Positions 1 through 35,184 of a DNA stretch of 35,184 bases are shown piece by piece. Numbering within the stretch: position 1 is the stretch's first letter; each line of letters begins with the position of its first letter. The notes under the pieces are model-generated. The model had not been told where the DNA came from, did no database searches, and saw only the letters and a program-made list of their open reading frames with translations. The stretch lies in IMG/VR virus record IMGVR_UViG_3300027860_000002; one strand, written 5' to 3'. This DNA comes from a virus. The position numbers and the translations under genes were made by a program.

Positions 1-127
1 ATTCAGCATTACCCGCAAATGCGCCTACAAATGTGTTATCTGTTGCAGAAGCCGTAGTCAGGGTAAGATTACCGGCATTTGAGCCTAAAAAGGTATTTCT
101 AGTCCCATAGTTAGAGATAAATGGCTG
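1..127. repeat. Terminal overlap identical to 35058-35184; the contig closes into a circle of about 35,057 bp
   Basis: Both ends read attcagcattacccgcaaatgcg...gttagagataaatggctg over 127 nt with no mismatch seen. Confidence 0.9.
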
Positions 128-14226: not shown

Positions 14227-14464
14227 ACTCACTTCGTAAAGCATTCATAGGTGATGGATAGTTATTCTTATGAATAAATCCAGCAACTGCATCTAAGTTA
14301 CCAGTAAGTTGAGTACTGCAAAGAGCAAAGTACGCATCACGTACAGGAGCTGTACCGAAACGGTCTTCGCCCTGAATGTTATCTAATACAGTATACGCAT
14401 TGTTATCAAGCAATGTTCGCACTACAGTATCAACATCAGGTCGTGTTATTTCAGTAGGATTGTC
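14227..14464 (-). CDS. Major capsid protein, exon 2
   Basis: Encodes DNPTEITRPDVDTVVRTLLDNNAYTV...PSPMNALRSE plus one base. It is bounded by the intron 1 terminal G (14465) and the intron 2 5' splice site. Confidence 0.8.
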
Positions 14465-14486
14465 CATTTTCTATTACTTTATTGAC

Positions 14487-15404
14487 TTATATCGAATAAT
14501 ATGCCATTATTTTATCATGATTAAAAAAATTAAAAAATTTAACTATGCATACATAGCTGGATATATCGACGGAGACGGATGTTTTGACATTGGAAAACAG
14601 TATGTTAAAAATCGTCTTAGTCCACGATATCCTGCTGGTATAATAGTATCTTCTACTAATGATAAAATAATAAATTGGTTTAATAATACATTTGGAGGAT
14701 CGGTTCGCTCTTATAAAAAGAGAACTTCTAATCAAAAGCCTATGTATTACTTTATTTTGAGAAAAAATAAAAGTATGTATTTGATTCCAAAAATTCTTCC
14801 TTTTTTGGTTGAAAAACGAGAAGAAGCATGTTTGTTTTTGGAATTTTGTAAACAAACAAACCCTATGAATAAAGAACATCTTATTAATAAGCTTAAAATA
14901 ACCAAAAGTGTGGGCAATCTTGTTACAAAGTATCATAAAGAAGAGTTTGAGCGACTTAAAAGTACAATCAATCCTACGATATATGATTTTGCATATTTGG
15001 CTGGATTTATAGATGCAGAATGTTCGTTGAATATTCAAAAATATAAGCCAAAAAACAAACCAAATTATGTTTATAAGATTCTGTTGCAATGCAACAATAC
15101 TAAAGCACCCGCCTTTAAATGGCTTATTGAAAGATTTGGAGGACAAATACATTTTATTGATCGCAGAAACCATGGAAAAGCAAGAAAGAATCAATTGACC
15201 TGGCGTTTGTCGGGAAAAGCTCTTTCTCATATTCTGCCAAATATTTATCAATTTCTCAGATATAAAAAACCAGTTTGTAAGCAATTGATTAAATTTTATG
15301 AAACAACTCTTAAGAATGGTGGTGCGCGACATACGGATCAATTTAGATCTGAATATGACCGCACTATAAAAATCAGAGAAGAGATTGTAACTAAAGTTCA
15401 TCAA
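14487..15404 (-). CDS. 305-codon intron-sense ORF, codon-aligned antisense to the LAGLIDADG gene. Coding status unknown
   Basis: ORF track. It uses the same triplet phase as the plus-strand gene and is open only because that gene has no TTA, CTA or TCA codons. The F/I/S/K-rich product has no motif I recognise. Confidence 0.2.
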   Translation of the reverse strand: MMNFSYNLFSDFYSAVIFRSKLIRMSRTTILKSCFIKFNQLLTNWFFISEKLINIWQNMRKSFSRQTPGQLILSCFSMVSAINKMYLSSKSFNKPFKGGCFSIVALQQNLINIIWFVFWLIFLNIQRTFCIYKSSQICKIIYRRIDCTFKSLKLFFMILCNKIAHTFGYFKLINKMFFIHRVCLFTKFQKQTCFFSFFNQKRKNFWNQIHTFIFSQNKVIHRLLIRSSLFIRANRSSKCIIKPIYYFIISRRYYYTSRISWTKTIFNILFSNVKTSVSVDISSYVCIVKFFNFFNHDKIMAYYSI

Positions 15405-15434
15405 TTAAACTCCAAGGGCATAAAATCAATATAA
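14517..15434 (+). CDS. Double-motif LAGLIDADG homing endonuclease (305 aa), antisense to intron 1 and the capsid gene
   Basis: Two motifs: YIAGYIDGDGCF and YLAGFIDAECSL. The first ATG is at 14517 (MIKKIKKF). A possible TTGACT-17-CATTAT promoter lies at 14482-14510. Confidence 0.85.
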   Translation: MIKKIKKFNYAYIAGYIDGDGCFDIGKQYVKNRLSPRYPAGIIVSSTNDKIINWFNNTFGGSVRSYKKRTSNQKPMYYFILRKNKSMYLIPKILPFLVEKREEACLFLEFCKQTNPMNKEHLINKLKITKSVGNLVTKYHKEEFERLKSTINPTIYDFAYLAGFIDAECSLNIQKYKPKNKPNYVYKILLQCNNTKAPAFKWLIERFGGQIHFIDRRNHGKARKNQLTWRLSGKALSHILPNIYQFLRYKKPVCKQLIKFYETTLKNGGARHTDQFRSEYDRTIKIREEIVTKVHQLNSKGIKSI

Positions 15435-15621
15435 GCGGGTGATCATTTCTGTCACCTCTTTATGTTTCCATAAAGATTCGACTATCACATCCTCTTTCGA
15501 GGTCTTTCTGTTTAGTCTGTCACGCTGCACAGCAAATACTTGCTTGCGCCTTGTTGTCTCCAGCATTACCTGGTAAGAGTTCCAAGTCCATTAAGAAAGA
15601 TTTTACAACGGCAACAATTCT

Positions 15622-16053
15622 ACCGTTGACACCAGCGGTGCAATTAATAAATGCGGCAGTTGCAGCGAGCATGTCTCTTGTGAGAGTATCCTCTGTCTGT
15701 CTCAAACTTACACCCAAACGTTCCGCTGCCTGATTAAGCACTGGATCTTGGTTTTGGAGCGTAACTTGCTCATTTAATATTATATATTGACCATAAAACG
15801 AAACGGTTGCATCGATATCGATAGCAGTTAGGTTCACTGAAGGAGGCGTCACGCCAGTATTTCCCAAAGGAACTAGTGCTGTTGGTAGGGGATTATATCT
15901 ACGCATTCTCAGCGTAACACCACCATTCCTAGGCATGACCTTAAGTTCAGCTGGTATCTTATGGATCATGTTTGGAACAGGAACCGATAAGAGTTTGTAG
16001 CTAAAACTTTGTTGGACAGGCGCCGGAAGAGTGGTTGTAGTTGTAATAGGCAT
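15622..16053 (-). CDS. Major capsid protein, exon 1 (144 codons)
   Basis: MPITTTTTLPAPVQQSFSYKLL...PRNGGVTLRMRRYNPLP...FINCTAGVNG looks like an HK97-fold podovirus capsid N-terminus. Past the splice site the frame reads on into intron sequence until the stop at 15520. Confidence 0.8.
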
Positions 16054-21757: not shown

Positions 21758-23845
21758 CTACGCAGGAGTTAATCCCTGCAATACATCTAATGATCCCTCT
21801 TGTTGTTTGTTTGTAGGTGTTCTCTGCGGAACACGTTGAGCTGGATTATGCTGTACACCGCGTTCACTTTCCATCGACAAACCTTTGGCAAGAGAGATCA
21901 AATTTCCTAAGTTGGCAATATCAATGCCTTCAAGCTCTTTAAGTGCTTTAACGAAATCAAGCAATGAAGCATAGTGGTCACGTTCAGCTTGTGCTTTACG
22001 TTCGATAGCCAAAGCCTGATTCTCTTGTACTCTACTCATACGCTCAACGCCAAGCCCCTGATCTGCGGTTGCTCGTGCTTGAGCAAGTTCAGTACGGGCC
22101 TGTTGTTCTTGGAGGGCTGATTGCATCTGCATCTGTTGCATTTGTTGCTGCTGCTGTTGGTTTTTCTGCATGATTTCAATGAGTTTTTTCTTATTTTGTA
22201 GAGTAGCAGATTCAACCAACGACTCATCAGGAATGGGCACACCCAGTTCCCTAAGCTGTAAGAGCTGAGCAAACTCCATCTGTTTTTGGGTAGCAGTGTT
22301 AAGACCATCCTCAACCACACAGTCATAAATACCAAAAGCCTTGTTGTAGAATTGATCAGAGGGCTGTTCCTTAAGGATCTTTTGTATCTTGCCCGGAGTA
22401 TAATTAGACTGCACTGCTTCAATAAGTATGCGGCCAAGTAGTTTTTGCGACTGATCTAGTTGATCAAAAAGCGGCTGTAAGGTAGTAAGTCCTGCACCTT
22501 GCCGTAGCATAGATAACACGCCTGCCTTATCATCCATAGCGCTGCCCAAAAGCTCTTCGTTCACACCCGATATTTGGTTAATTTCGTTAGCCAATCCCTC
22601 AGATAATTGGAACATAGAAGGAGGTATTTGGGGTGCTGGTATCTGCATCACATCAGTCATTAATGCACTATCCTTCAGCGCCAATCCACGTCCTTGATTA
22701 GAGAGAAAAACGTCCTTAGGATTAACCAAAGCGTTCTCTTTATAGATCCAGCCAGAGTTGATTTGAGATTCAAGGATATCAAGCTCAATTACTTTGCGGC
22801 GTGAGTAGAGATACTGAGCGTCACGTAGTCCACGCACCACACCCTGTATGCGCAAATAGTAGTAGGGCGACTGTGGATTGTAGTAGGTCAGCACAGGGAC
22901 AAATGGATAGCGATCTATACCCAAAGTATTCGGACCGTCGTAGAGCACCTTACCCTGTACAACGATGCCTACTTTAACTGTCGGTATGGTTGTTTCTATA
23001 ACGGTCACTTGTGGATAAGTTCGAAGAAATTCCTTCAAGCGATCTTCATCCTGAGAGCGCCACTCAGTAGTTTCGCCCGTTTGTGAATCTACCAGTAATT
23101 TTTGTTGCCTAAAGTCTTGGTAATGGAATTCATCATAAGCCATGAGATTTTTATATGACCAACCATAGTTTTCTGGCATGTATTGGAACTTTGCGTCTTT
23201 TGAAGGAGCGGACGCATTAACCATGATGCTCATAATCTCATCTTCTTTGTCAGGCATAAGCGATATAATCTCACGCTTGGTCATATACGAGCGCTTCCAT
23301 ATGCCACGGCAATCAGAGAGGTCTGCTTTGCGGAAGTAAGGATCTATAAGGAACTCATTATATTCACACTTGTTAACGCGTAAGGTACCTGAAACAGGAT
23401 CTTTGCGGAAATCATTCCATACTTCTAGTAGAGTCATGCCAGTCGTTAATGAACCGTAAAATGCATCAGATATTGTTTCAAGTATGCCATCTTGGTGTGC
23501 TACATGCATAAGTACTTTAGTGAACTGATCTGCCGTCATATCATCAGCGTTCTCTATGGGAACAGCAATCATAGACTTGCGGGTACGTCGTTGATGGCCA
23601 GATATCATGTTAATAACACGCCGTATGCGATTAAAATTGAATAACCTGCGACGATTGGCGGGAACATTGGGGTAAAGCTCAGACCAAAGATTAACTTCAC
23701 CTGAGATAAATCTATTGTCGATATCAGCTTCTGCCCAAAAGGACTGATTAAGCGTAATACTTTCAGAATAGAAGTCTGTCATTCGGTATAAGAGTGGACG
23801 ATCTTTCTCATCCGCGTATTCGGGCATGAGTTGGGGAAATATCAT
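21758..23845 (-). CDS. Portal protein (695 aa)
   Basis: Called on size, position between TerL and scaffold/capsid, and a Q-rich helical C-terminus. Family assignment is from memory only. Confidence 0.6.
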   Translation of the reverse strand: MIFPQLMPEYADEKDRPLLYRMTDFYSESITLNQSFWAEADIDNRFISGEVNLWSELYPNVPANRRRLFNFNRIRRVINMISGHQRRTRKSMIAVPIENADDMTADQFTKVLMHVAHQDGILETISDAFYGSLTTGMTLLEVWNDFRKDPVSGTLRVNKCEYNEFLIDPYFRKADLSDCRGIWKRSYMTKREIISLMPDKEDEIMSIMVNASAPSKDAKFQYMPENYGWSYKNLMAYDEFHYQDFRQQKLLVDSQTGETTEWRSQDEDRLKEFLRTYPQVTVIETTIPTVKVGIVVQGKVLYDGPNTLGIDRYPFVPVLTYYNPQSPYYYLRIQGVVRGLRDAQYLYSRRKVIELDILESQINSGWIYKENALVNPKDVFLSNQGRGLALKDSALMTDVMQIPAPQIPPSMFQLSEGLANEINQISGVNEELLGSAMDDKAGVLSMLRQGAGLTTLQPLFDQLDQSQKLLGRILIEAVQSNYTPGKIQKILKEQPSDQFYNKAFGIYDCVVEDGLNTATQKQMEFAQLLQLRELGVPIPDESLVESATLQNKKKLIEIMQKNQQQQQQMQQMQMQSALQEQQARTELAQARATADQGLGVERMSRVQENQALAIERKAQAERDHYASLLDFVKALKELEGIDIANLGNLISLAKGLSMESERGVQHNPAQRVPQRTPTNKQQEGSLDVLQGLTPA

Positions 23846-23940
23846 ATTGCTACTTCCTATGGCATATAGAGGGATGGAGCTCCATAGGAAAACATAGAAC
23901 TAAAAATAATAAGAATACAAGAAGTGATGGAGAACTATTT

Positions 23941-24014
23941 TGGTAACCTGTAAAGGAATCGAACCTTTTCCTCTGGGCTGAAAACCCAGGGTTCTACCAA
24001 TAAACTAACAGGTC
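23941..24014 (-). tRNA. tRNA with anticodon UUC (Glu), CCA encoded
   Basis: Hand-folded cloverleaf: acceptor GACCTGT/ACAGGTT, D arm GTTT-ATTGGTA-GAAC, anticodon stem CTGGG/CCCAG with loop TTTTCAG, T arm AAAGG-TTCGATT-CCTTT. Confidence 0.75.
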
Positions 24015-24022
24015 ATGAAAAA

Positions 24023-24054
24023 GACCCGGGAACAAAAATATAAAAACCCGGGCC
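24023..24054 (-). terminator. CCCGGG hairpin with a T-run between the two tRNA-type genes (terminator or processing signal)
   Basis: Minus strand reads CCCGGG-16 nt-CCCGGG then TCTTTTTC. Confidence 0.3.
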
Positions 24055-24109
24055 ATGAAGTGTGTCTCATTGAAGAATAGGTATGGTAGCGTGCACGCTT
24101 TAAGTCAAA

Positions 24110-24207
24110 AAACCCGAGTTGGATTCGAACCAACGTCCCGATCGCCCGAAATTACAACTAATAATCTCGTATACCTGGCAACCACTCTACCGCTGAGCTA
24201 TCGGGTA
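24110..24207 (-). tRNA. Atypical 98-nt tRNA-like gene with an extended anticodon arm
   Basis: Canonical TA-GCTC-AGCGGTA-GAGT D arm, GTTGG-TTCGAAT-CCAAC T arm and 6/7-bp acceptor stem. Between them lies GTTGCC-AGGTATA-[CGAGATTA-TTAGTTG-TAATTTCG]-GGCGAT instead of a 17-nt anticodon arm. No CCA is encoded. Confidence 0.55.
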
Positions 24208-24264
24208 TTTTTTCCGTCTATACCATTCCCAGACTACTAAAAAAGAATGGTATTATGCAAGAAG

Positions 24265-24298
24265 CAAAAAAGGCCCCGTAGTATACACTAGCAGGGCC
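24265..24298 (-). terminator. Rho-independent terminator after the RHH gene
   Basis: Minus strand reads GGCCC-loop-GGGCC followed by TTTTTTGC. Confidence 0.6.
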
Positions 24299-24314
24299 TC
24301 AACTATAAGGAAAT

Positions 24315-24452
24315 CTAGTTACCGTTGTTGATGTACTCAGTGAGAGCGGCTACGATTATTTCTTTTTGCGTTATCCTTTGTTCAAACGCCATTCTCCTCA
24401 AGATTTCGTAGAGCTCTTGAGGTAAAAAAACACTAATTCTTATTTCATCCAC
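24315..24452 (-). CDS. Ribbon-helix-helix protein (45 aa)
   Basis: GGAGG, 6 nt, then GTG. Product VDEIRISVFLPQELYEILRRMAFEQRITQKEIIVAALTEYINNGN has the classic beta-alpha-alpha layout. Below the ORF-track cutoff. Confidence 0.55.
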   Translation of the reverse strand: MDEIRISVFLPQELYEILRRMAFEQRITQKEIIVAALTEYINNGN

Positions 24453-24484
24453 TCTGATCCTCCATTATAACTAAACATGATCTT

Positions 24485-24580
24485 TGAGCTTTTTTTATAA
24501 ACTGAGTGAGCATTATAATACTATTTCTATGTATGAAATTTTTACGGTAAGCCAACATGAGCAAAAAAAGCTTTATGAGT
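24485..24580 (+). repeat. TGAG(C/T) motif cluster, 5 copies in plus orientation
   Basis: TGAGC at 24485, 24507 and 24558. TGAGT at 24503 and 24576. Confidence 0.7.
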
Positions 24581-24713
24581 TTTATAGAGACATTCATATT
24601 CCAATATAAGTCTTTGATCTATTGTTTTTTATGTAATTGCTCGTAAGATCCTAGAATATTTTATGATCTTGTACCATCCATATGAACTATATGCTAAAAT
24701 ACTATGATTTTTT

Positions 24714-24799
24714 ACTCATAGATAACAAGTCTCAATTAACTCAGAAGACGAACTCATGGTATAGACTGTATAAATTCAAGAACTCATGCTCATAGCTCA
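24714..24799 (-). repeat. TGAG(C/T/A) motif cluster, 7 copies in minus orientation, spanning the tnpB stop codon
   Basis: On the plus strand: ACTCA at 24714, 24739, 24752 and 24782; TCTCA at 24730; GCTCA at 24788 and 24795. CATGAGTTC occurs twice on the minus strand. Confidence 0.7.
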
Positions 24800-25899
24800 T
24801 AATGACTAGTCAACAAATTTCGGACGCGACTCGCATCGCTCTCGTGGCTCGCTCCAAGCCCGGCAATGAGTGTGTTTTTCGCCGTATTTACGTCGCGATC
24901 ATGAAGAGTTCCACAACTCACACAAACCCATTCCCTTACCTTCAGACAAGTCAATGATGCAGGACCCGAAGGTGATCTACATACCGAACATGTCACGGTG
25001 GAAATCATTGCATTATCTGTACCGGTTTTGCTTGCAAATTCTATATATTTTCTCTCATTATTCTCACTTTTATAACACATCATAAGGCGTAGCTGGTAGT
25101 TAGCAGAATCAGCAACCAAAAGGCCTAGATTACGAGCTCTTTGCTTGAGATCATCTTTATTAACTACTATCGTATCATACTGTTCTACTATTTTGCGAGA
25201 CAGCTTATGATTAGCATCCTTACGGCAATTGGCTATACGCTCATGGAGTCGAGCTACTAACTTTTTATTACCTCCACGCTGTGCCTGGGCCAATCTGTTA
25301 AGGTGTTTTTGTAACTGTGCTTCGCGCTGAATAATATCGCCATTTGATAATGCCATGCGACCATCAACGCTGAGCTGTATACCGATTAATTCACAGCCCT
25401 TATGAGCAATTCTGTTTGATTGAGCATCTATAAATAAACAAAGATAAAAACCCGAAGCACGCTTCACTAAACGAGCACACTTTACCTTACCTATAGGTAT
25501 TCGCTGCTTATGGTATTTTAATTTGCCCAAATAAGGCAATTCTACATAGGTGCGATTGATATGAGCTTCTTTTATTGGATCCGGAAATGAAATAGAAGTA
25601 AGTCTATTTCTTTGCCCCTTTAAGCGCGGCGCTCGAGCTAGCTTTTTAAAACAACGCTGCCATGTGGTATGTGCATCTTTGAGCATCGCTTGAATAGTGT
25701 GTGATGGCATACCTAATCGCTTATTATGACCAGCAAGAATATTAATAAACTCAAACTTATTGTAATAAATATGATCCGCAGCATCCTTCTCTATCTTCTT
25801 TATCGCCCAGTTCCATATGGACGTAAGAATAGGAAACCACTCATTGATCATAGTTTCTTGTTCGCGCTTAAGTTTAAGTTTTAACTGTACTTGTATCAA
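24790..25899 (-). CDS. tnpB: TnpB-like (IS200/IS605 OrfB-type) RuvC/zinc-finger protein, 369 aa, with a non-canonical RuvC-I motif
   Basis: N-terminal KLKLKREQETMINEWFPILTSIWNWA. C-terminal CSVC...CVSCGTLHDRDVNTAKN. The expected G-x-D-x-G motif reads GIQLS (Gln175, codon 25375-25377). TTG start. No tnpA nearby. Confidence 0.8.
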   Translation of the reverse strand: MIQVQLKLKLKREQETMINEWFPILTSIWNWAIKKIEKDAADHIYYNKFEFINILAGHNKRLGMPSHTIQAMLKDAHTTWQRCFKKLARAPRLKGQRNRLTSISFPDPIKEAHINRTYVELPYLGKLKYHKQRIPIGKVKCARLVKRASGFYLCLFIDAQSNRIAHKGCELIGIQLSVDGRMALSNGDIIQREAQLQKHLNRLAQAQRGGNKKLVARLHERIANCRKDANHKLSRKIVEQYDTIVVNKDDLKQRARNLGLLVADSANYQLRLMMCYKSENNERKYIEFASKTGTDNAMISTVTCSVCRSPSGPASLTCLKVREWVCVSCGTLHDRDVNTAKNTLIAGLGASHESDASRVRNLLTSHYEL

Positions 25900-25905
25900 A
25901 GAGGT

Positions 25906-26108
25906 TGAGCCTTTATATAAGAATAGGTGAGCCTGTGTTTACAAATAGTATGAGCCTTTATCGCGATTCTATGAGTATCTAGTATGACAATAATTCATTA
26001 AGCTATGAGCCTGTATGCTGAATTAGTATATTGAGCAACTATTTACAAAGGTTATGAGCTTTTCACTCTCATTGAGCCATCGTATATCTATAAGGTAGCT
26101 ATATGAGC
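25906..26108 (+). repeat. Array of 9 direct TGAGC motifs (one is TGAGT) at 18-34 bp spacing, between tnpB and TerL
   Basis: Motif starts at 25906, 25928, 25951, 25972, 26006, 26032, 26055, 26073 and 26104. Four copies extend to TGAGCCT(T/G)T. Confidence 0.85.
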
Positions 26109-26151
26109 AATGTTGGCATAAATATATCACGGCATATTGGCATGTCAATTA

Positions 26152-27507
26152 TTATTGTCTAAAAAATCCAGTAAACTGCTGATCTCCATAAGTAGCTTCA
26201 TGATATCTGCGCTCTAAATCTTCGGCTGATGTACCTTTTTGTGCGTGGCGTAATCCCATAGATAAATAACGAAAACTATCGGCAAAATGACTATATTGAT
26301 CGTGCACTGGTGAGCCCTTGTACACATTGTGCTTAGTATCGAACTCCTGTCTATAGTTCTCTAATGCTCGCACAAGTGGTCTTGTTGTAGCCTCATTAAA
26401 CCAACAACGTGGCAGTACACTACGAACCACTTCAATGCCATCAACGATGGGTATATTATCAACAACCGTGAAATTAACCCCTAGATCATATGCCTTAGCC
26501 CAACGGGTCATGCCTGATCCAAACTCCATTTGCTTCATATCGTGAGGAGCAAAATGCTTAGCATACGTATATGGCTGTGACTTTATAAAGTTGATGTAAT
26601 GCTCCAGTCCTTCTTTGTTCTTTTCGTAGACATTTAAAATACGAACCGTCTGGCCAATAACCTGGAACATAATAATCGAGGTACTGTCCCGTACACCTAT
26701 ATCCCAACTTGAATATACCGGATGGCTTGGCTCCCAAGGCACATCAGTTATCTGATTATTAAGCCGCAATCTATCTATATACTTCATATAGTATGAGCCC
26801 TGTATACCCATATCAAACGATGTATAGTACTCCTGCTTGGCAAGGTCCTCTGAGATTTCTCCTAGGGCTATTTCTTTTTGTATATCAAAGAGGGAAATGT
26901 GCTTAGTGCCTTCCACCGTAAGATGCGAACAAAACCACTCAGGAGACTCTTTGGCTACTTGATACATGGTGTAGAGATGGTTATGCCCGCGTGGTGTTGA
27001 TATAAACAAAGCCCAGGCATCGGCAGCTGTAAGAGCAGGCCTCAAGTATGAATAAGCCCGTGGATCTTGCAGGGCATACTCACTAAAAATAATTCCATTT
27101 GCACTTATTCCCATAAGCCTATCATATGAATCACTGCCAGCAAACTGGATTTGTGATCCGTTAATGAGCGTGATTTTCATCTCAGCTATGTTCTTTTTCT
27201 CTATAAGCTCTGCAGGTATATAATCCAAAAACTGCATACCATCAATAGTCATGCCTTCGAACACCGTTCTTCGGGCTTGTACGCCTGTTGGAAGCAAATA
27301 AAAATAATTTCCTATTTGTCTTAATGCTGCTCTGAGCATTATATTTAGGGCGCAAATGTCCTTGCCTGCTCTACGTGGCCAAATTGCCAATAATCGCTTC
27401 TTTTTATCTCTCTCTAATGCATTAATAAGAGGTATCTGAAACTCTCTTGGCTTAAATCTATCTAACTTAATACGCGCTTCTACATTCTCCGCAACATAGC
27501 CGCTTAT
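26152..27507 (-). CDS. terL: Terminase large subunit. Start codon unresolved
   Basis: Walker-A-like WPRRAGKD. The nuclease half contains ...SSWDIGVRDSTSIIMFQ.... The frame is open and terminase-like for 39 codons upstream of the first canonical start (TTG at 27390). Confidence 0.8.
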   Translation of the reverse strand: MSGYVAENVEARIKLDRFKPREFQIPLINALERDKKKRLLAIWPRRAGKDICALNIMLRAALRQIGNYFYLLPTGVQARRTVFEGMTIDGMQFLDYIPAELIEKKNIAEMKITLINGSQIQFAGSDSYDRLMGISANGIIFSEYALQDPRAYSYLRPALTAADAWALFISTPRGHNHLYTMYQVAKESPEWFCSHLTVEGTKHISLFDIQKEIALGEISEDLAKQEYYTSFDMGIQGSYYMKYIDRLRLNNQITDVPWEPSHPVYSSWDIGVRDSTSIIMFQVIGQTVRILNVYEKNKEGLEHYINFIKSQPYTYAKHFAPHDMKQMEFGSGMTRWAKAYDLGVNFTVVDNIPIVDGIEVVRSVLPRCWFNEATTRPLVRALENYRQEFDTKHNVYKGSPVHDQYSHFADSFRYLSMGLRHAQKGTSAEDLERRYHEATYGDQQFTGFFRQ

Positions 27508-27809
27508 TTAGCTTCCTTAGTATATCCCATTAAGTCGGGATGTACCTTTGATAACATTTCTAAATGAGCACATTCAACACATAGTCCTTTATTTTTCATA
27601 GATTCAAAATAACATTCTTCGTCGTCATTCATATATAGATTGCATTGCGAACATCTTTTAAATCGTGAAGGCTGTCCAGGCGTGTAGTAGTTATATCGAA
27701 TATTATTATCGTTATTTTTTTTCATTTTATTTAGATTCCCTATTAAGTACCGATTCTTGAAAGATATACCAACATATACCAGGATGATCTGTGCAATCAC
27801 ATGGTTCAA
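27504..27809 (-). CDS. Cys-rich zinc-ribbon-like protein. Start uncertain (TTG 27809 or ATG 27725)
   Basis: CSQCNLYMNDDEECYFESMKNKGLCVEC. Confidence 0.5.
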   Translation of the reverse strand: MNHVIAQIILVYVGISFKNRYLIGNLNKMKKNNDNNIRYNYYTPGQPSRFKRCSQCNLYMNDDEECYFESMKNKGLCVECAHLEMLSKVHPDLMGYTKEAK

Positions 27810-27988
27810 TCATCTGATATTCCAATAAAAACTTCATTGAGACCACTCCTTTTTGATGATAAGGTATAATAACAACGAAAACATCTTTCACTGCAAACGG
27901 GAAACAATAACTTTTCTGTAGATGGCATAGTTATTAATAACCCATATGACATTTCATAGCACATCAAACAATGCTTCATTTCTTCCAT
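27806..27988 (-). CDS. Cys-rich small protein (60 aa)
   Basis: HCLMCYEM...PVCSERCFRCY. TTGA-type overlap with the next gene. Confidence 0.5.
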   Translation of the reverse strand: MEEMKHCLMCYEMSYGLLITMPSTEKLLFPVCSERCFRCYYTLSSKRSGLNEVFIGISDD

Positions 27989-28440
27989 AATCCCGTCAAT
28001 CCTACCGCTATAGCATCTGTTATATCATCTCTAAGATCTGACTCTAAACCTTTGAACATATGCCATAATACTCTTGCCACTTGTTCTTTAGGAGCCCCAC
28101 CAAAAGTACATATAGCCTTCTTTACCTCAGTAGGAGAATATTCATACAGCACCAAATCGTTTTGCGACGCTAGCAGATAGAGTATTCCTCGCACATAGCA
28201 CAACTTCATAAAGGACTGTATGTTCTTACCCAAAAATGGCGTCTCGATGGCCATATGGGTTACTTCGTCGCTAAGTATCTTGGCAGCAAAGAACGTATGT
28301 ATCTCTTCTAAGCGGTCAGGAATGCTCGACTTAGGATTAAGTTTAAGACACCCATATTGTAATAGCTTAGGCTTCTTTGGGTCAGTTAACAATGAAAAGC
28401 CCAAGTACTGAGTTCCTGGGTCTATACCTAGTAAGATCAT
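27976..28440 (-). CDS. ruvC: RuvC-type Holliday junction resolvase (154 aa)
   Basis: MILLGIDPGTQYLGFSLL, HMAIETPF and DDITDAIAVGL match the RuvC catalytic motifs. Confidence 0.85.
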   Translation of the reverse strand: MILLGIDPGTQYLGFSLLTDPKKPKLLQYGCLKLNPKSSIPDRLEEIHTFFAAKILSDEVTHMAIETPFLGKNIQSFMKLCYVRGILYLLASQNDLVLYEYSPTEVKKAICTFGGAPKEQVARVLWHMFKGLESDLRDDITDAIAVGLTGLWKK

Positions 28441-29588: not shown

Positions 29589-30932
29589 CTACAGGCCTAA
29601 TCGCTGCTTTAACTTAGCTCTTCGCTCGTCGACTGACATTTCTGAACAGGGCGCTACACTCATCGTGGTGAGTGTTTTCATAAGTTGATCGACGCATTCT
29701 TGTTTGACCCGTAGTCGCTCCGCTTCTTGCTCAGGAGTTTCATGGTCCATCCATGATCTTGCTGCTTTGAGAGTATCGCTTGTTGTATCTCTTTGAGGTT
29801 TATAACTAACGTTACGGGAAGGACGCTGGGCATAGTACGACGATGAAGCATACCCCGTTTGTTGTGGGTATCTTCGCTGTTGAGCTTCGTGAAACGTATT
29901 CTCCATAGCACCATTGCTTATGAGTTTCTTCATGGTATCAAAACCTGCTGCGGCAAGAGCAGGCGAAGCACCTCCGCTTACTTCTTTGGCAGGAGCAGCA
30001 TCACGCATACGCTTTCCTTCAACGTAGACACTTGGAGCAAACTTTATTTCTATACCAGTCTGCTCAGCTATCTGGTGGGAATAAGCGAAGGTAACTTCTT
30101 TGCCCTGTTCTGCACAGAGGTTATTGCAAAAGGCTACTATCCACGGATAAGGTTTATGTATCGGCACCTTAGAGCTTTTTAAAGCCGTCAGCGAAGCATC
30201 AAGCACCGCATCAGGATAGGAAGAGAGCCATATACAACCCGATGGAGTGAGCGATAAAGCCTCTCTCAAGGCCTTAACAGAGGGAGATAGGAAGTGATCT
30301 AGCAACGAAGGGTCTGCTTTCATACGTTCTCCTAGGTTTTGTTGATAGAAAAGACGGCGTGCGATGCATTCTTCTCTTGTTTTGGTATTTTCTGAAGACT
30401 TAGCTGTATAATTAATATTATTATACATATCTCTTAGTTTATCTTGTACGCCATCTGCCGACGCAGAGCAGCTATTGGTGTCATACATGGCGAGAAGTAG
30501 TGCTAGGGGGAGATACCAACAAGATGGCATAAGTGATGCTAGCTTCTTCCTGAAATTAACATCTTGGAAAATGGGATGAAGGTAATAGTTGCATGTACGT
30601 TCTTTATAGGTTCCTTTTACAAATCTACGTACTTTGCGAATAATGCCCATACCTTCAAGATCCTGAAGGATGCGATGGGCTTGGCGTAGTGACATGTCTG
30701 CCTTATCGGCAATAGTTTTCTGGGCAGCATACAAACTATCATATACATTGCCATAGCCAATCAGTGTATTAAGTACACGAATACGGCCCTTATTGTGACT
30801 ATTAGAAAAGTATTCTATGGGATTTGCAAGCCATTTGGCGGCGTTTTGATTAGACAGGAACACAAGCTGAAAATATTTGTTCTTTTCTTTTTGCTTGCGT
30901 TGTCGGGATTTGTTTGGTAGATTTGTATTCAT
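29589..30932 (-). CDS. Replication initiator-like protein with a winged-helix segment (447 aa from ATG 30932)
   Basis: GAAGG RBS before ATG 30932. MSLRQAHRILQDLEGMGIIRKVRR. Lies next to the divergent control region. Confidence 0.4.
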   Translation of the reverse strand: MNTNLPNKSRQRKQKEKNKYFQLVFLSNQNAAKWLANPIEYFSNSHNKGRIRVLNTLIGYGNVYDSLYAAQKTIADKADMSLRQAHRILQDLEGMGIIRKVRRFVKGTYKERTCNYYLHPIFQDVNFRKKLASLMPSCWYLPLALLLAMYDTNSCSASADGVQDKLRDMYNNINYTAKSSENTKTREECIARRLFYQQNLGERMKADPSLLDHFLSPSVKALREALSLTPSGCIWLSSYPDAVLDASLTALKSSKVPIHKPYPWIVAFCNNLCAEQGKEVTFAYSHQIAEQTGIEIKFAPSVYVEGKRMRDAAPAKEVSGGASPALAAAGFDTMKKLISNGAMENTFHEAQQRRYPQQTGYASSSYYAQRPSRNVSYKPQRDTTSDTLKAARSWMDHETPEQEAERLRVKQECVDQLMKTLTTMSVAPCSEMSVDERRAKLKQRLGL

Positions 30933-31268
30933 ATAAACCTTCGTGATGGGTTTGTTAGGATTAATCGACGGTCCAGTCTTGGCGGAGTAGACGATCGAAA
31001 TAATCAAAAACACAATAAATTTCAACTAATTGAGATGCATCCTGCATCTTTTTTTTTCTTATAGATTACCAGTTGAAGAGAAAATAGCTAGTACTAGATA
31101 CTGGCTATTTTTTTTACCGATACATTTAGTCTGTCGCGGCACTACGGCCTACGCACATCTAAAACATATCCATAAACGAGAATATCCACAACTTACTTTT
31201 CTAAGCATCATCATTTTTGCAGCAATTATTAAAGTTTTGTTTAATAATTGACCATTAAGGCTTGCGCT

Positions 31269-33597: not shown

Positions 33598-35184
33598 CTA
33601 AAGGTTACATTCTTTGCAAGTTGTCTCGTGGTTACGCTTGCGGGGCATGCGGCATGATTCAAGATCGGATATGCGTGCATTGAGCTTCTGTATCTCATTA
33701 AGCAATAATACCGAAATATCATGGTACTTAACTGATTCAGGCGCACCATCTTCATTATATACTACAAGGCGCGGCATCGCTTCTTCTACTTCTTCAGCAA
33801 TAAGACCATATTGCATGCGCTTCGTCTCATCTGCCTTGTAGTTAAACACTACAGGACGCAACTTATAGATAGCATCACTGGCATCATCCATATCGTCTAT
33901 ATTTTCTTTATAGCGAAGCGATGACGATACGGTACCAAGTTGACCAGCACTATCAACTAAGACTGCAATAGCATCGGCATTGCCCGTAGTAACGCCACGT
34001 ATGCCCGCTATAACACACTTGGCTTGGGTGCCTTGTACACCTATGCGGGTAGTAGTATTTTCACCAACTGTTCCTGTTACTGATGCACCAATAAGAATAT
34101 TATTGCTTTCAGCGCCAGTATAAGCACTACCTGCTGTATATCCCAGAAATGTATTATTTGCACCAGTAATGAGGCTATAACCCACTTGATGGCCAAATCC
34201 AGTATTGTGAACACCAGTAGTCAAATTATAAAAACCAAAGTTAGAAACCATGGTAGTTTGAGTAGATGTCGTAAGATTAGTTGCAGCAAAATTACCCATA
34301 AGAAGATTTTGCCCACCAATATGTCCTGCCGCAATACCCGTGTTATGACCAACGATAATATTATTATTAGATGTTCCCACTTGCCCCGTGTTAAGGGATG
34401 AGCCTGAATTGTGTCCAATAATCAATGCATCAAGTAATGGACCTGCATTTTGTGCTGCATTATTACCAATCGCCATAGACACACTAAGATTATTAGAATT
34501 CTGGAAAGCGTTATTACCAATAGCCATGACAACGGAAGATTGGTTTGCTGCCCCTGCATTAAATCCTACAAAAAGATTATTATTGGCACCATTTTGTGCA
34601 TATCCAGCTAGATTTCCAATTCCTATATTATTTACACCAACAGTTTCAGAGTAAAAAGTATCAATTCCCACACCAACACCAGTTCCAGAAGTAAGGGCCT
34701 GGAAAGAACCTTTGCCAAGAGCAGTATTACTATATGAAGTTACATTTTGAAGTGATTGTGCACCAACAGCAGTATTGCCCGATACCCCAGCTGCGGTAGC
34801 CGCATTTTGCATAGCTCTAAAGCCAATACAAACATCGTTATTAGCGTTAGTATTTCCATACGCAGCATTATAACCAATTGCAACTGATGAAGAAATTGCA
34901 GTCGCATTGCCATAAGCATTCCAACCAATTGCTACATTGGCACCTCCGACCCCCGTAAATGCTCCAAGGGCATCATAACCCAAGGCTGTATTACCTGAAG
35001 ATGTAGTATTTAATTGAAATGCACTTGATCCGACAGCAACATTTTGGTTACCGGTTGATTCAGCATTACCCGCAAATGCGCCTACAAATGTGTTATCTGT
35101 TGCAGAAGCCGTAGTCAGGGTAAGATTACCGGCATTTGAGCCTAAAAAGGTATTTCTAGTCCCATAGTTAGAGATAAATGGCTG
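33598..35184 (-). CDS. Tail fibre/tailspike, 3' part, with a C-terminal intramolecular chaperone (peptidase S74-type) domain. Continues at 595-1
   Basis: C-terminal SSLRYKENIDDMDDASDAIYKLRPVVFNYKADETKRMQYGLIAEEVEEAMPRLVVYNEDGAPESVKYHDISVLLLNEIQKLNARISDLE. The ORF-track Met at 34983 is an internal TTG, and the frame stays open to the window end. Confidence 0.85.
   Translation of the reverse strand, partial: QPFISNYGTRNTFLGSNAGNLTLTTASATDNTFVGAFAGNAESTGNQNVAVGSSAFQLNTTSSGNTALGYDALGAFTGVGGANVAIGWNAYGNATAISSSVAIGYNAAYGNTNANNDVCIGFRAMQNAATAAGVSGNTAVGAQSLQNVTSYSNTALGKGSFQALTSGTGVGVGIDTFYSETVGVNNIGIGNLAGYAQNGANNNLFVGFNAGAANQSSVVMAIGNNAFQNSNNLSVSMAIGNNAAQNAGPLLDALIIGHNSGSSLNTGQVGTSNNNIIVGHNTGIAAGHIGGQNLLMGNFAATNLTTSTQTTMVSNFGFYNLTTGVHNTGFGHQVGYSLITGANNTFLGYTAGSAYTGAESNNILIGASVTGTVGENTTTRIGVQGTQAKCVIAGIRGVTTGNADAIAVLVDSAGQLGTVSSSLRYKENIDDMDDASDAIYKLRPVVFNYKADETKRMQYGLIAEEVEEAMPRLVVYNEDGAPESVKYHDISVLLLNEIQKLNARISDLESCRMPRKRNHETTCKECNL
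35058..35184. repeat. Second copy of the 127-nt terminal overlap
   Basis: Identical to 1-127. Confidence 0.9.

What the first reader, a model, noticed from the sequence alone, without database searches (positions are those of the whole stretch)
24485..26108. Dense TGAGC motif arrays in opposed orientation flanking the tnpB-like gene
The 203 bp between tnpB and TerL contain 8 exact TGAGC copies plus one TGAGT, all in the same orientation. Spacings are 22, 23, 21, 34, 26, 23, 18 and 31 bp, so many lie about two helical turns apart. Four copies extend to TGAGCCT(T/G)T. A given 5-mer is expected about 0.2 times in that length.

On the other side of tnpB there are two further clusters:
- Seven copies in the opposite orientation (24714-24799), overlapping the tnpB stop codon.
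- Five more in the original orientation (24485-24580), within an AT-rich stretch.

The repeats are too short and irregular for CRISPR. They resemble protein-binding iterons. Candidate roles are a pac site (short motifs flanking a cleavage point, next to the terminase gene), a replication origin, a centromere or operator array, or multi-site transposon-like ends around tnpB. The same-orientation copies on both sides also fit a single array split by insertion of the tnpB unit.
Basis: seen in the sequence. Interest (0 to 1): 0.7.

Follow-up and report, generated by a model that had tools for sequence, protein, structure and literature searches.

The report
Motif arrays flanking a dead TnpB
A small phage packs many copies of one five-base motif just downstream of two promoters, around a domesticated and apparently nuclease-dead TnpB gene and a tiny repressor-like gene; the arrays are real and kept by selection, but what reads them is not yet known.

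Summary
TGAGC occurs 8 times, plus one TGAGT, at 25906-26108. No other 5-mer in the genome clusters like this, and no simulated genome reached 7 copies.

The array is a degenerate 22-bp tandem repeat in which only the 5-bp core is conserved. It recurs in all close relatives (L001, L038/L028, L088), with unit gains and losses but the core kept. About 20 more distant TerL/portal relatives lack tnpB and also lack the array.

New context:
- Array 1 starts at about +5 of a near-consensus sigma-70 promoter (P1) that abuts the TerL stop codon.
- Array 2 follows a second conserved promoter-like site (P2), upstream of a CopG-like RHH gene.
- The motif also invades the 5' half of tnpB.
- The TnpB has lost its RuvC-I aspartate (GIDPGF to GIQLSV) yet evolves under purifying selection (dN/dS about 0.1). 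It keeps an omegaRNA scaffold and has no left end.
- Active relatives use TAM TGAAC, one base from TGAGC.

Pac site, origin, transposon ends and a split array are poorly supported. The best reading is a cassette-specific array of cis-acting recognition sites, read by the RHH or by the dead TnpB. Function remains unproven.

The parts
26121..26148 (-). P1: sigma-70-type promoter TTGACA-16 nt-TG-TATATT, 3 nt downstream of the TerL stop codon. Predicted transcription start is near 26114.
   Evidence: 11 of 12 hexamer matches plus an extended -10 TG, the best site in 23800-26400. It is nearly invariant in L001, L088 and L038, while TerL synonymous sites are saturated. Activity is inferred, not measured.
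25906..26108 (-). Array 1: 8 GCTCA plus 1 ACTCA on the transcribed strand (TGAGC/TGAGT on +). A degenerate 22-bp tandem repeat that fills the leader between P1 and the tnpB start codon.
   Evidence: Conserved as a motif with unit-scale indels: 8 copies in L001, 6 in L038, 9 in L088.
24790..25899 (-). TnpB-like gene, 369 aa, TTG start. RuvC-I GIDPGF is replaced by GIQLSV. HDRD and the zinc finger are kept.
   Evidence: Pfam, PHROG and NCBIfam hits. D to Q falls at a column invariant in 14 homologues and aligned to D191 of ISDra2-type TnpB. The ORF is intact in L001 and L038, with dN/dS 0.08-0.11.
25371..25684 (-). Five more GCTCA copies inside the 5' 612 nt of the tnpB ORF, same orientation as the arrays.
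   Evidence: 5 in the window, 7 in L001, 5 in L038. Homologues usually have 1-2 per whole gene. The copies arise from lineage-specific residues (EAH, DAQ, IAH, QLS) and turn over through synonymous changes.
24789..24939 (-). OmegaRNA scaffold homologue overlapping the tnpB 3' end.
   Evidence: Covariance model R1, built from six active relatives, scores 82.4 bits with E 1.6e-19 over the full model. tnpB dS is lower in the 3' half (0.33) than in the 5' half (0.74-0.90). The guide-adjacent hairpin is lost.
24714..24799 (-). TGAG-rich tail: 2 TGAGC, 4 TGAGT and 1 TGAGA on the transcribed strand. It covers the omegaRNA 3' end, the presumed guide and the sequence after it.
   Evidence: 7-nt tandem repeat at 24783-24801. 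Only 3-4 copies occur in L001 and L038. The TGAGTTC nearest the RE end matches the family RE terminus GAG(G)TTCAA.
24658..24686 (-). P2: promoter-like TTCATA-17 nt-TAAAAT inside a 35-nt block conserved in all lineages.
   Evidence: (9 of 12 matches). Its function as a promoter is inferred.
24485..24580 (-). Array 2: 3 GCTCA plus 2 ACTCA on the transcribed strand, between P2 and the RHH gene, within a stretch of 27-30% GC.
   Evidence: L001 and L038/L028 have 3-5 copies at other positions in the same interval.
24315..24452 (-). CopG/Arc-like ribbon-helix-helix protein, 45 aa.
   Evidence: Pfam RHH_1 E 1.7e-4, PHROG Arc/CopG-like repressors, weak NCBIfam hits to plasmid copy-control proteins. 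It is 100% identical in four lineages. Homologues at 72% (L089) and 48% (L039) also sit just upstream of the portal gene.
24266..24298 (-). Terminator-like hairpin with a T-run that closes the RHH transcription unit.
   Evidence: Read directly from the sequence. The terminator scan did not call it because the loop is long.

Best explanation
The TGAGC copies read GCTCA on the transcribed strand. They form a selectively maintained, iteron-like array of one 5-bp recognition site.

The array belongs to a lineage-specific cassette lodged between TerL and the portal gene. The cassette runs: strong promoter P1, array 1, nuclease-dead TnpB with its omegaRNA, promoter-like P2, array 2, CopG-like RHH, terminator.

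I think the copies are most likely cis-regulatory binding sites in the initially transcribed DNA. A cassette-encoded DNA-binding factor would coat the region downstream of P1 and P2. That would throttle transcription into tnpB, the RHH gene and, by read-through, the portal and late genes. My first choice for the factor is the adjacent RHH repressor.

Shown: the array, its selection, its position relative to the promoters, the cassette anatomy, and the dead but constrained TnpB.

Inferred: that the promoters fire, that the sites act as DNA, and which protein binds them.
For: - The array is real and unique in the genome.
- Only the 5-bp core is conserved across 35 distinct units, while spacers and unit number change between lineages. 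This argues for selection on the core rather than recent duplication.
- Array 1 begins about 5-10 nt after the predicted start of a near-consensus promoter. Array 2 sits in the same relation to a conserved promoter-like block.
- The RHH gene is the nearest DNA-binding gene and is 100% conserved at the protein level.
- L089 has an RHH with the same beta-strand face (EIRISV) and again has GCTCA copies, 23 nt apart, next to the gene. L039 has a different beta-strand and no array.
- From established knowledge of RHH proteins (CopG, omega, ParG, ParR), recalled and not tested here: they read 4-7-bp subsites arranged in repeat arrays.
Against: - No copy overlaps the -35 or -10 hexamers, which is where RHH autorepressors usually bind.
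- Spacings of 17-34 bp, without strict helical phasing, are wider than the 7-11 bp typical of cooperative RHH arrays. There is no second half-site.
- Same-orientation copies inside the tnpB ORF, and copies downstream of the RHH gene in L089, are odd for an operator.
- Presence of the array co-varies equally with the dead TnpB and with the initiator type. The comparative data therefore cannot single out the RHH.
- All array-bearing genomes are close relatives, effectively 3-4 lineages.
Confidence: 0.3

Rival explanations
1. TAM array. TGAGC is the target-adjacent motif of the dead TnpB. The TnpB-omegaRNA complex samples or dwells on these sites, which tethers it to its own locus or lets it autoregulate as a weak multi-site roadblock.
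For: - In active relatives the left-end junction always carries TGAAC. Three independent insertions of the P0056 IS share it with variable bases before it. L031, L034 and L087 have it about 10 nt before the LE hairpin.
- TGAGC differs from TGAAC by one base. Like TGAAC, it is preceded by T, A or G.
- The site is monopartite, asymmetric and 5 bp long, like a TAM.
- The recurrent minimum spacing of 17-18 bp equals a TAM plus 12-13 bp.
- At the position aligned to ISDra2 K84, the window lineage has Lys where relatives have C, S, L or V. The TldR preprint 10.64898/2026.09.22.753285 lists that position among TAM-recognition residues.
- The protein is under purifying selection and keeps its omegaRNA scaffold.
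- TldR and TnpB give ChIP signal at TAM plus a short seed (PMC10705468).
Against: - A one-mismatch resemblance to a given 5-mer has about a 3% chance either way round, and I compared the motif with several known motifs.
- No consensus follows the motif, and no candidate guide matches the array units beyond chance.
- The copies lie on the strand opposite to the one that carries the TAM in the ancestral IS.
- Active relatives show no TAM clusters.
- There is no precedent for a function of TAM-only arrays.
Confidence: 0.2
2. RNA-level element. The GCUCA copies act in the P1 and P2 transcripts. They could be accessible single-stranded sites for an RNA-binding factor or RNase, boxA-like antitermination elements, or partners that pair with the UGAGC/UGAGU repeats. 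Those repeats replaced the guide-adjacent hairpin of the omegaRNA.
For: - Every copy, including those created independently inside the ORF, is in the sense orientation. All lie inside transcription units and upstream of terminators.
- Both leaders fold less well than shuffles (z +1.3 and +1.8).
- tnpB lacks a visible Shine-Dalgarno sequence, whereas the RHH gene has GGAGGA.
- The family's terminal omegaRNA hairpin is lost in the window, L001 and L038. It is replaced by UAUGAGC-type repeats complementary to GCUCAUA.
Against: - Low structure is partly a by-product of same-orientation repeats that hold most of the G and C.
- A complementarity of 5-7 nt is weak.
- L001 and L038 have only 3-4 UGAG copies, and the L089 tail has none.
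- No known RNA-binding protein motif fits.
- Nothing shows that the RNA exists.
Confidence: 0.15
3. Replication origin or copy-control iterons, or a centromere. The sites would be bound by the O-like winged-helix initiator, with the CopG-like RHH as a regulator.
For: - The anatomy fits: 22-bp direct repeats with a conserved core, a second cluster at a distance, and an adjacent stretch of 27-30% GC.
- It is the only iteron-like array in the genome, and none lies in or beside the initiator-like gene.
- All array-bearing lineages share this initiator (76-85% identity). L039, which lacks the array, has a 25% homologue.
- The RHH weakly resembles plasmid copy-control proteins.
Against: - The array lies 3.5 kb from the initiator gene, inside the packaging module and within a tnpB cassette.
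- The core is only 5 bp.
- DnaA boxes are not above chance.
- Cumulative GC skew shows no turning point here.
- No ParA-type gene was found among the ORFs scanned against Pfam or PHROGs.
- The initiator assignment rests on weak winged-helix hits.
Confidence: 0.1
4. Packaging signal. The array would be a pac-type recognition site next to the terminase gene.
For: The array lies between TerL and the portal gene. From memory, the P1 pac site is built from clustered short motifs.
Against: - The array is absent from about 20 relatives that share the TerL-portal module.
- No TerS gene is identified, and ORF101 is not conserved even in L001 and L038.
- From general knowledge, pac sites normally lie in or before terS, not after terL.
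- Copy number varies from 6 to 9 between near-identical terminases.
Confidence: 0.05
5. Remnant of transposon biology, or a neutral tandem repeat. The copies would be multi-site IS ends, an older array split by tnpB, or slippage products without function.
For: Copies lie on both sides of tnpB. The units are related by duplication, and unit number changes between lineages.
Against: - IS200/IS605 relatives have hairpin ends and no arrays, and the LE is absent here.
- No tnpB-less relative has an array.
- The core is invariant while the spacers have decayed.
- Extra copies were created inside a constrained ORF.
Confidence: 0.07

Closest known systems
TldR: TnpB-like nuclease-dead repressors (Wiegand et al., PMC10705468; 10.64898/2026.09.22.753285)
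   Same: - A TnpB homologue with a deteriorated RuvC site, evolving under purifying selection.
- No TnpA and no left end.
- Phage-borne and linked to a non-transposon gene.
- A guide-RNA scaffold is retained downstream.
   Different: - Only one catalytic residue is lost, and the protein is not truncated at the C-terminus.
- The guide-adjacent hairpin is missing.
- No target was found.
- The gene is embedded in dense arrays of a TAM-like 5-mer, which is not described for TldR loci in the two TldR papers I read.
Iterons of theta-replicating plasmids and phage origins, such as the seven 22-bp iterons of R6K gamma ori and the lambda ori iterons (recalled, not tested)
   Same: Direct repeats about 22 bp apart, a short conserved core (the R6K core contains TGAGAG), one orientation, a nearby AT-rich stretch and a second cluster at a distance.
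   Different: - The conserved core is only 5 bp, and the rest of the unit has decayed.
- The array is far from the initiator gene.
- It sits in a transcribed leader and runs into an ORF.
- It is absent from related phages.
Repeat arrays read by RHH proteins: omega heptads of pSM19035, ParG ACTC boxes of TP228, ParR/ParB repeat clusters flanking par operons (recalled, not tested)
   Same: A small RHH gene lies next to arrays of a 4-7-bp subsite. The arrays can flank the operon and serve both autoregulation and higher-order complexes.
   Different: - Known arrays have abutting subsites, 7-11 bp centre to centre. Here the spacing is 17-34 bp.
- There is no partner ATPase.
- Copies also occur inside a coding region.
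CRISPR arrays and tracrRNA:crRNA pairs of type V systems
   Same: A promoter precedes an array of a repeated core with variable intervening sequence. The array lies next to a TnpB/Cas12-family gene. The scaffold RNA carries the complement of the repeat where a hairpin arm used to be.
   Different: - The repeat is 5-7 nt, not 23 nt or more.
- The intervening sequences are paralogous, not acquired.
- There are no cas1 or cas2 genes.
- No spacer-target logic could be shown.

Membership tests
CRISPR array | Near-identical repeats of about 23-55 nt separated by unrelated spacers of similar length | tested here: not met
   Only 5 bp are conserved. The spacers share ancestry through a 22-bp tandem unit (families D1-D3).
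IS200/IS605 transposon ends | A left end with a subterminal hairpin, preceded by the TAM on the tnpB strand | tested here: not met
   Relatives have TGAAC, about 10 nt, then the GCGCAATCCCC...GGGG hairpin. In the window the last motif copy ends 7 nt before the TTG start codon, and no such hairpin is present.
IS200/IS605 transposon ends | A right end carrying the omegaRNA scaffold and ending in the family terminus (G)TTCAA | tested here: met
   Covariance model hit of 82 bits at 24789-24939(-). The terminus is GAGTTC(TT)GAA in the window and GAGTTCAAC in L001 and L038. The terminal hairpin is lost.
IS200/IS605 transposon ends | Short-motif arrays are a regular feature of the ends of related elements | tested here: not met
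   No GCTCA, TGAGC or TGAAC clusters occur around nine homologous loci.
TldR (nuclease-dead TnpB repressor) | Inactivating change in the RuvC DED motif, conserved within the clade | tested here: met
   D to Q in GIDPGF, present in the window, L001, L038 and L088. The RuvC-II Glu position is non-canonical in the whole family, including mobile copies, so it is not counted.
TldR (nuclease-dead TnpB repressor) | The protein is maintained by selection and has lost its transposon context | tested here: met
   dN/dS is 0.08-0.11. There is no LE. No Y1 transposase ORF is adjacent; the neighbours are TerL and the RHH gene.
TldR (nuclease-dead TnpB repressor) | An adjacent guide RNA whose guide matches a TAM-flanked site in a promoter | tested here: inconclusive
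   The scaffold is present. The guide boundary is uncertain. No match with 2 or fewer mismatches beyond chance was found in the phage genome. The host genome is unknown.
Replication-origin iterons | Direct repeats of 17-22 bp with a conserved core, next to an AT-rich region | tested here: met
   TRF period 22. GC is 27-30% at 24400-24750.
Replication-origin iterons | Located in or beside the initiator gene, often with DnaA boxes | tested here: not met
   The initiator-like gene is at 29589-31025, 3.5 kb away. DnaA-box matches are at chance level and none lies in the arrays.
Replication-origin iterons | Bound by the cognate initiator | not testable with these tools
   Needs EMSA or footprinting.
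pac site | Conserved among phages that share the terminase, and located in or near terS | tested here: not met
   Absent in relatives with 37-72% TerL identity. No terS gene is identified.
pac site | Coincides with a packaging terminus | not testable with these tools
   No reads are available. The identical 127-bp window ends only show a circular assembly.
RHH operator or centromere array | An RHH gene next to the repeats | tested here: met
   The RHH gene at 24315-24452 starts 33 nt after the last copy of array 2. L089 shows the same adjacency.
RHH operator or centromere array | Abutting subsites about 7-11 bp apart that allow dimer-dimer cooperation, usually overlapping the promoter | tested here: not met
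   Spacings are 17-34 bp, and no copy overlaps a -35 or -10 hexamer.

The most novel reading that the evidence does not exclude
The arrays are functionally coupled to the nuclease-dead TnpB rather than to an ordinary repressor. Two forms of this reading remain open.

(a) The arrays are clusters of its own TAM (TGAGC, against TGAAC in active relatives). They would hold or regulate the RNA-guided complex at its locus.

(b) The arrays are transcribed GCUCAUA units that pair with the UAUGAGC repeats. Those repeats replaced the guide-adjacent hairpin of its omegaRNA. This would be a natural trans-paired omegaRNA, an intermediate between a TnpB omegaRNA and a tracrRNA:crRNA pair.
Probability: 0.2. 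Interest if true: 0.9.

Novelty: new variant of a known kind. Interest (0 to 1): 0.62.

Why it matters
Domesticated, nuclease-dead TnpB proteins (TldRs) are a recently recognised class of RNA-guided regulators, and the roles of most clades are unknown.

This phage lineage offers a compact, complete example of about 35 kb. The dead TnpB is under clear purifying selection. It sits behind a near-consensus promoter in the packaging module. Its omegaRNA has lost the guide-adjacent hairpin. It is also wrapped in selected arrays of a motif one base away from the family TAM.

If the arrays are read by the TnpB complex, or pair with its RNA, that would be a new way of wiring an RNA-guided protein to its own locus. 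It would bear on how split guide RNAs arose.

If the arrays are read by the RHH or the initiator, they are an ordinary operator or iteron array in an unusual place. Even then, the locus is a directly testable system with few parts.

Tried and rejected
1. CRISPR-like spacers. The units are paralogous, so this is rejected.
2. Array units as targets of the omegaRNA guide. The best matches were 7-8 of 9 nt, scattered and inconsistent between lineages. No guide-like 16-mer has a target elsewhere in the genome.
3. Chi- or KOPS-like polar signal. Outside the cassette the strand skew of the motif (16:5 in 26.1-35 kb) ranks eighth of 287 5-mers and is absent in 1-24 kb. It is not distinctive.
4. TAM clusters as a general habit of the family. 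None occur around active relatives.
5. Another iteron set for the initiator. None was found.
6. More members of the dead-TnpB clade. The searches covered viral, metagenome and genome collections and two protein searches. They gave only L001, L028/L038, L088 and the fragment L089.
7. RHH homologues with arrays but without tnpB. None was found. L039 has neither an array nor tnpB.
8. Rfam. Nothing was found in the arrays.
9. A stable fold for the leaders. They are less structured than shuffles.
10. INPHARED blastn with the locus gave no match.
11. A literature search for TGAGC iterons gave nothing relevant.
12. Resemblances recalled from memory, each at 4 of 5 bases or similar: boxA GCUCUUUA, the P1 C1 operator ATTGCTC, the tRNA D-arm AGCUCAG, and the ParG ACTC box. 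I treat them as leads only.
Full report
**Setting**

The window has identical 127-bp ends, so it is a complete circular assembly of about 35.06 kb. It is a phage. On the minus strand it encodes:
- an O-like initiator candidate (29589-31025),
- RuvC (27976-28440),
- TerL (26152-27390),
- a TnpB homologue (24790-25899),
- a 45-aa ribbon-helix-helix protein (24315-24452),
- tRNA-Glu,
- a P22-type portal (21758-23845), followed by structural genes.

An Erf recombinase lies on the plus strand. No INPHARED phage resembles the locus at the DNA level.

**The observation**

There are eight TGAGC and one TGAGT between 25906 and 26108, with the stated spacings. Four copies extend to TGAGCCT(T/G)T.

- It is the only place in the window with more than three copies per 203 bp.
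- In 200 Markov simulations of the genome, no 5-mer reached seven copies in such a span.
- Tandem Repeats Finder sees a 22-bp period.
- Across 35 distinct units from four genomes, information is confined to GCTCA. There is a weak A-rich preference before the core, and G never follows it.

The 'opposite' cluster has two exact copies and five TGAGT or TGAGA variants. The 24485-24580 cluster has three exact copies and two TGAGT.

From the density outside the cassette (39 copies in 33 kb on that strand) about 0.7 are expected.

**Relatives**

TerL-anchored scans of viral and metagenome contigs found three close lineages with the same arrangement: L001, L038 (identical to L028 downstream of tnpB) and L088, which is a chimeric contig. 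They also found about 20 more distant relatives (37-72% TerL identity) in which TerL is followed by other small ORFs or directly by the portal gene.

Every tnpB-bearing lineage has the arrays. L001 has 8 copies in array 1, L088 has 9 and L038 has 6. Each has 3-5 copies in array 2. None of the tnpB-less relatives has any such cluster.

Alignments show that the promoter-proximal third of array 1 is almost invariant. The rest differs by unit-sized insertions and deletions, and by substitutions that spare the core. TerL synonymous sites between these genomes are saturated (dS about 1.35). Retention of the core is therefore selection, not recency.

**Promoters**

Three nucleotides after the TerL stop codon, on the strand that carries TerL and tnpB, lies TTGACA-16 nt-TG-TATATT. 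It matches 11 of 12 consensus positions, has an extended -10, and is the best site in the region. It is conserved in all lineages. The first GCTCA lies about 5-10 nt after the predicted start, so array 1 is the transcribed leader of tnpB.

A second block, conserved in all lineages and 110-145 nt after the tnpB stop, reads TTCATA-17 nt-TAAAAT. It is followed by array 2, the RHH gene and a terminator-like hairpin.

Both leaders fold less well than dinucleotide shuffles. This is partly expected for same-orientation repeats.

**The TnpB**

It belongs to a large family, with 1277 homologues at E of 1e-20 or better. The nearest members outside this phage group are 54-57% identical. Some sit in complete IS605 elements with a Y1 transposase and occur in many copies.

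The RuvC-I motif GIDPGF has an aspartate that is invariant in 14 homologues and aligns to the catalytic D191 of ISDra2-type TnpB. Here it reads GIQLSV, as it does in L001, L038 and L088. Mutating any residue of the DED triad abolishes cleavage (PMC10705468).

The ORF is nonetheless intact, with dN/dS 0.08-0.11. The HDRD motif and the zinc finger are kept.

A covariance model built only from six active relatives finds the omegaRNA scaffold at 24789-24939(-), with 82 bits and E 1.6e-19. Synonymous divergence is lower in the overlapping 3' half of the gene.

Two things are missing:
- The left end. Relatives have TGAAC, about 10 nt, then a GCGCAATCCCC hairpin. Here the array runs up to the start codon.
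- The stable guide-adjacent hairpin of the omegaRNA. It is replaced by unstructured UAUGAGC-type repeats.

This is the profile of a domesticated, TldR-like protein. No guide target was found in the phage genome, and the host is unknown.

**What the arrays are not**

- Not CRISPR. The core is 5 bp and the spacers are paralogous.
- Not IS ends. Relatives have none, and arrays 1 and 2 are direct repeats of each other.
- Probably not one older array split by tnpB. No unsplit array exists in any relative. Copies were created inside tnpB by lineage-specific residues (EAH, DAQ, IAH and the QLS of the dead active site) and by synonymous turnover. In L089, tnpB abuts the RHH gene, and the GCTCA copies lie after that gene.
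- A pac role fits poorly. The arrays are absent from relatives with the same packaging genes, and copy number varies.
- A Chi-like polar signal is not supported outside the cassette.

**What they may be**

Four readings survive.

1. Binding sites for the adjacent CopG-like RHH, acting as a roadblock or coating downstream of P1 and P2.
   - For: the RHH is 100% conserved. A 72% homologue with the same DNA-facing strand again has GCTCA copies beside it. A 48% homologue with a different strand has none.
   - Against: the wide, unphased spacing, the absence of a half-site partner, no overlap with the promoter hexamers, and copies inside an ORF.

2. TAM-like sites for the dead TnpB complex.
   - For: the family TAM is TGAAC, one base from TGAGC. 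The site is monopartite. The minimum spacing of 17-18 bp equals a TAM plus a short R-loop. The lineage has gained a lysine at a position listed as TAM-contacting.
   - Against: no guide complementarity exists, and no function for TAM-only arrays is known.

3. An RNA-level role for GCUCA in the transcripts.
   - For: this explains the strict sense orientation, the confinement to transcription units, and the complementarity to the UGAG-rich omegaRNA tail.
   - Against: there is no direct support.

4. Origin or copy-control iterons for the O-like initiator.
   - For: this is the only iteron-like array in the genome.
   - Against: it is 3.5 kb from that gene, lacks DnaA boxes and shows no skew signal.

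Array presence co-varies equally with the RHH type, the dead TnpB and the initiator type. Only 3-4 close lineages exist. The data therefore cannot decide among these readings.

**Verdict**

The finding is real and non-random, and the arrays are under selection. The specific proposals of pac site, transposon ends and a split array are not supported.

The most useful new result is the context: a promoter-driven cassette built around a constrained, apparently nuclease-dead TnpB. I rank a cassette-specific cis-regulatory site array first, with the RHH as the likeliest reader, at only about 0.3. The TnpB-coupled readings together come to about 0.2-0.35.

Noticed in passing
window 24110-24207 (-): A tRNA-like element scores 38.7 bits against Rfam tRNA. 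Its acceptor, D and T arms are intact, but it has an insertion of about 31 nt in the anticodon arm. ARAGORN does not call it. It is followed by a T-run, and L001 has the same element.
   Followed up: partly
window 14376-15434 (+), with 15520-16053 (-): An HNH endonuclease ORF lies antisense to the late genes, in an island of about 31% GC. It sits beside a short ORF that matches only the N-terminal part of a major head protein family. This may be a homing-endonuclease insertion in the capsid region.
   Followed up: no
window 1-127 and 35058-35184: The two ends of the window are identical over 127 bp. The contig is therefore a circular, complete assembly of about 35.06 kb.
   Followed up: yes
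window 27504-27988 (-): Two small ORFs (60 and 101 aa) between RuvC and TerL have no counterpart in L001 or L038, where RuvC abuts TerL. They look like a lineage-specific insertion, not a small terminase.
   Followed up: partly
window 25374-25382 (-), codons 174-176 of tnpB: The substitution that removes the RuvC-I aspartate (GIDPGF to GIQLSV) is encoded by CAG CTC AGC. That sequence itself contains a GCTCA copy. L038 has CAA CTC AGC, with no exact copy.
   Followed up: partly
window 24803-24812 and 24645-24670: A perfect 10-bp palindrome, TGACTAGTCA, lies at the omegaRNA 3' end. An AAGATC...GATCTT inverted repeat overlaps P2, but its right arm is not conserved in L001 or L038.
   Followed up: no
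window 26115-26147 (-): P1 carries three ATGCC(A/G) copies. Two lie in the spacer between the -35 and -10 hexamers and one lies just after the -10. This is a second small repeat that could be an operator.
   Followed up: no
L031 5045-5130 and 3313-3350: In an active IS605 relative, the last 22 nt or so of the right end are duplicated. The 20-nt sequence between the two copies also occurs upstream of the element. This makes a two-unit RE-end/guide repeat.
   Followed up: no
L088 1-7325: The contig is chimeric. It is phage sequence, with an L001-like array that has one extra unit, up to about position 1150. It then switches inside tnpB to high-GC bacterial DNA.
   Followed up: partly
window 24790-25899 compared with L001 and L038: Synonymous divergence of tnpB (0.52-0.58) is well below that of the flanking TerL (1.35) and portal (0.93-1.10). 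Either the cassette was exchanged between lineages more recently, or its synonymous sites are constrained by the omegaRNA and the motif.
   Followed up: partly
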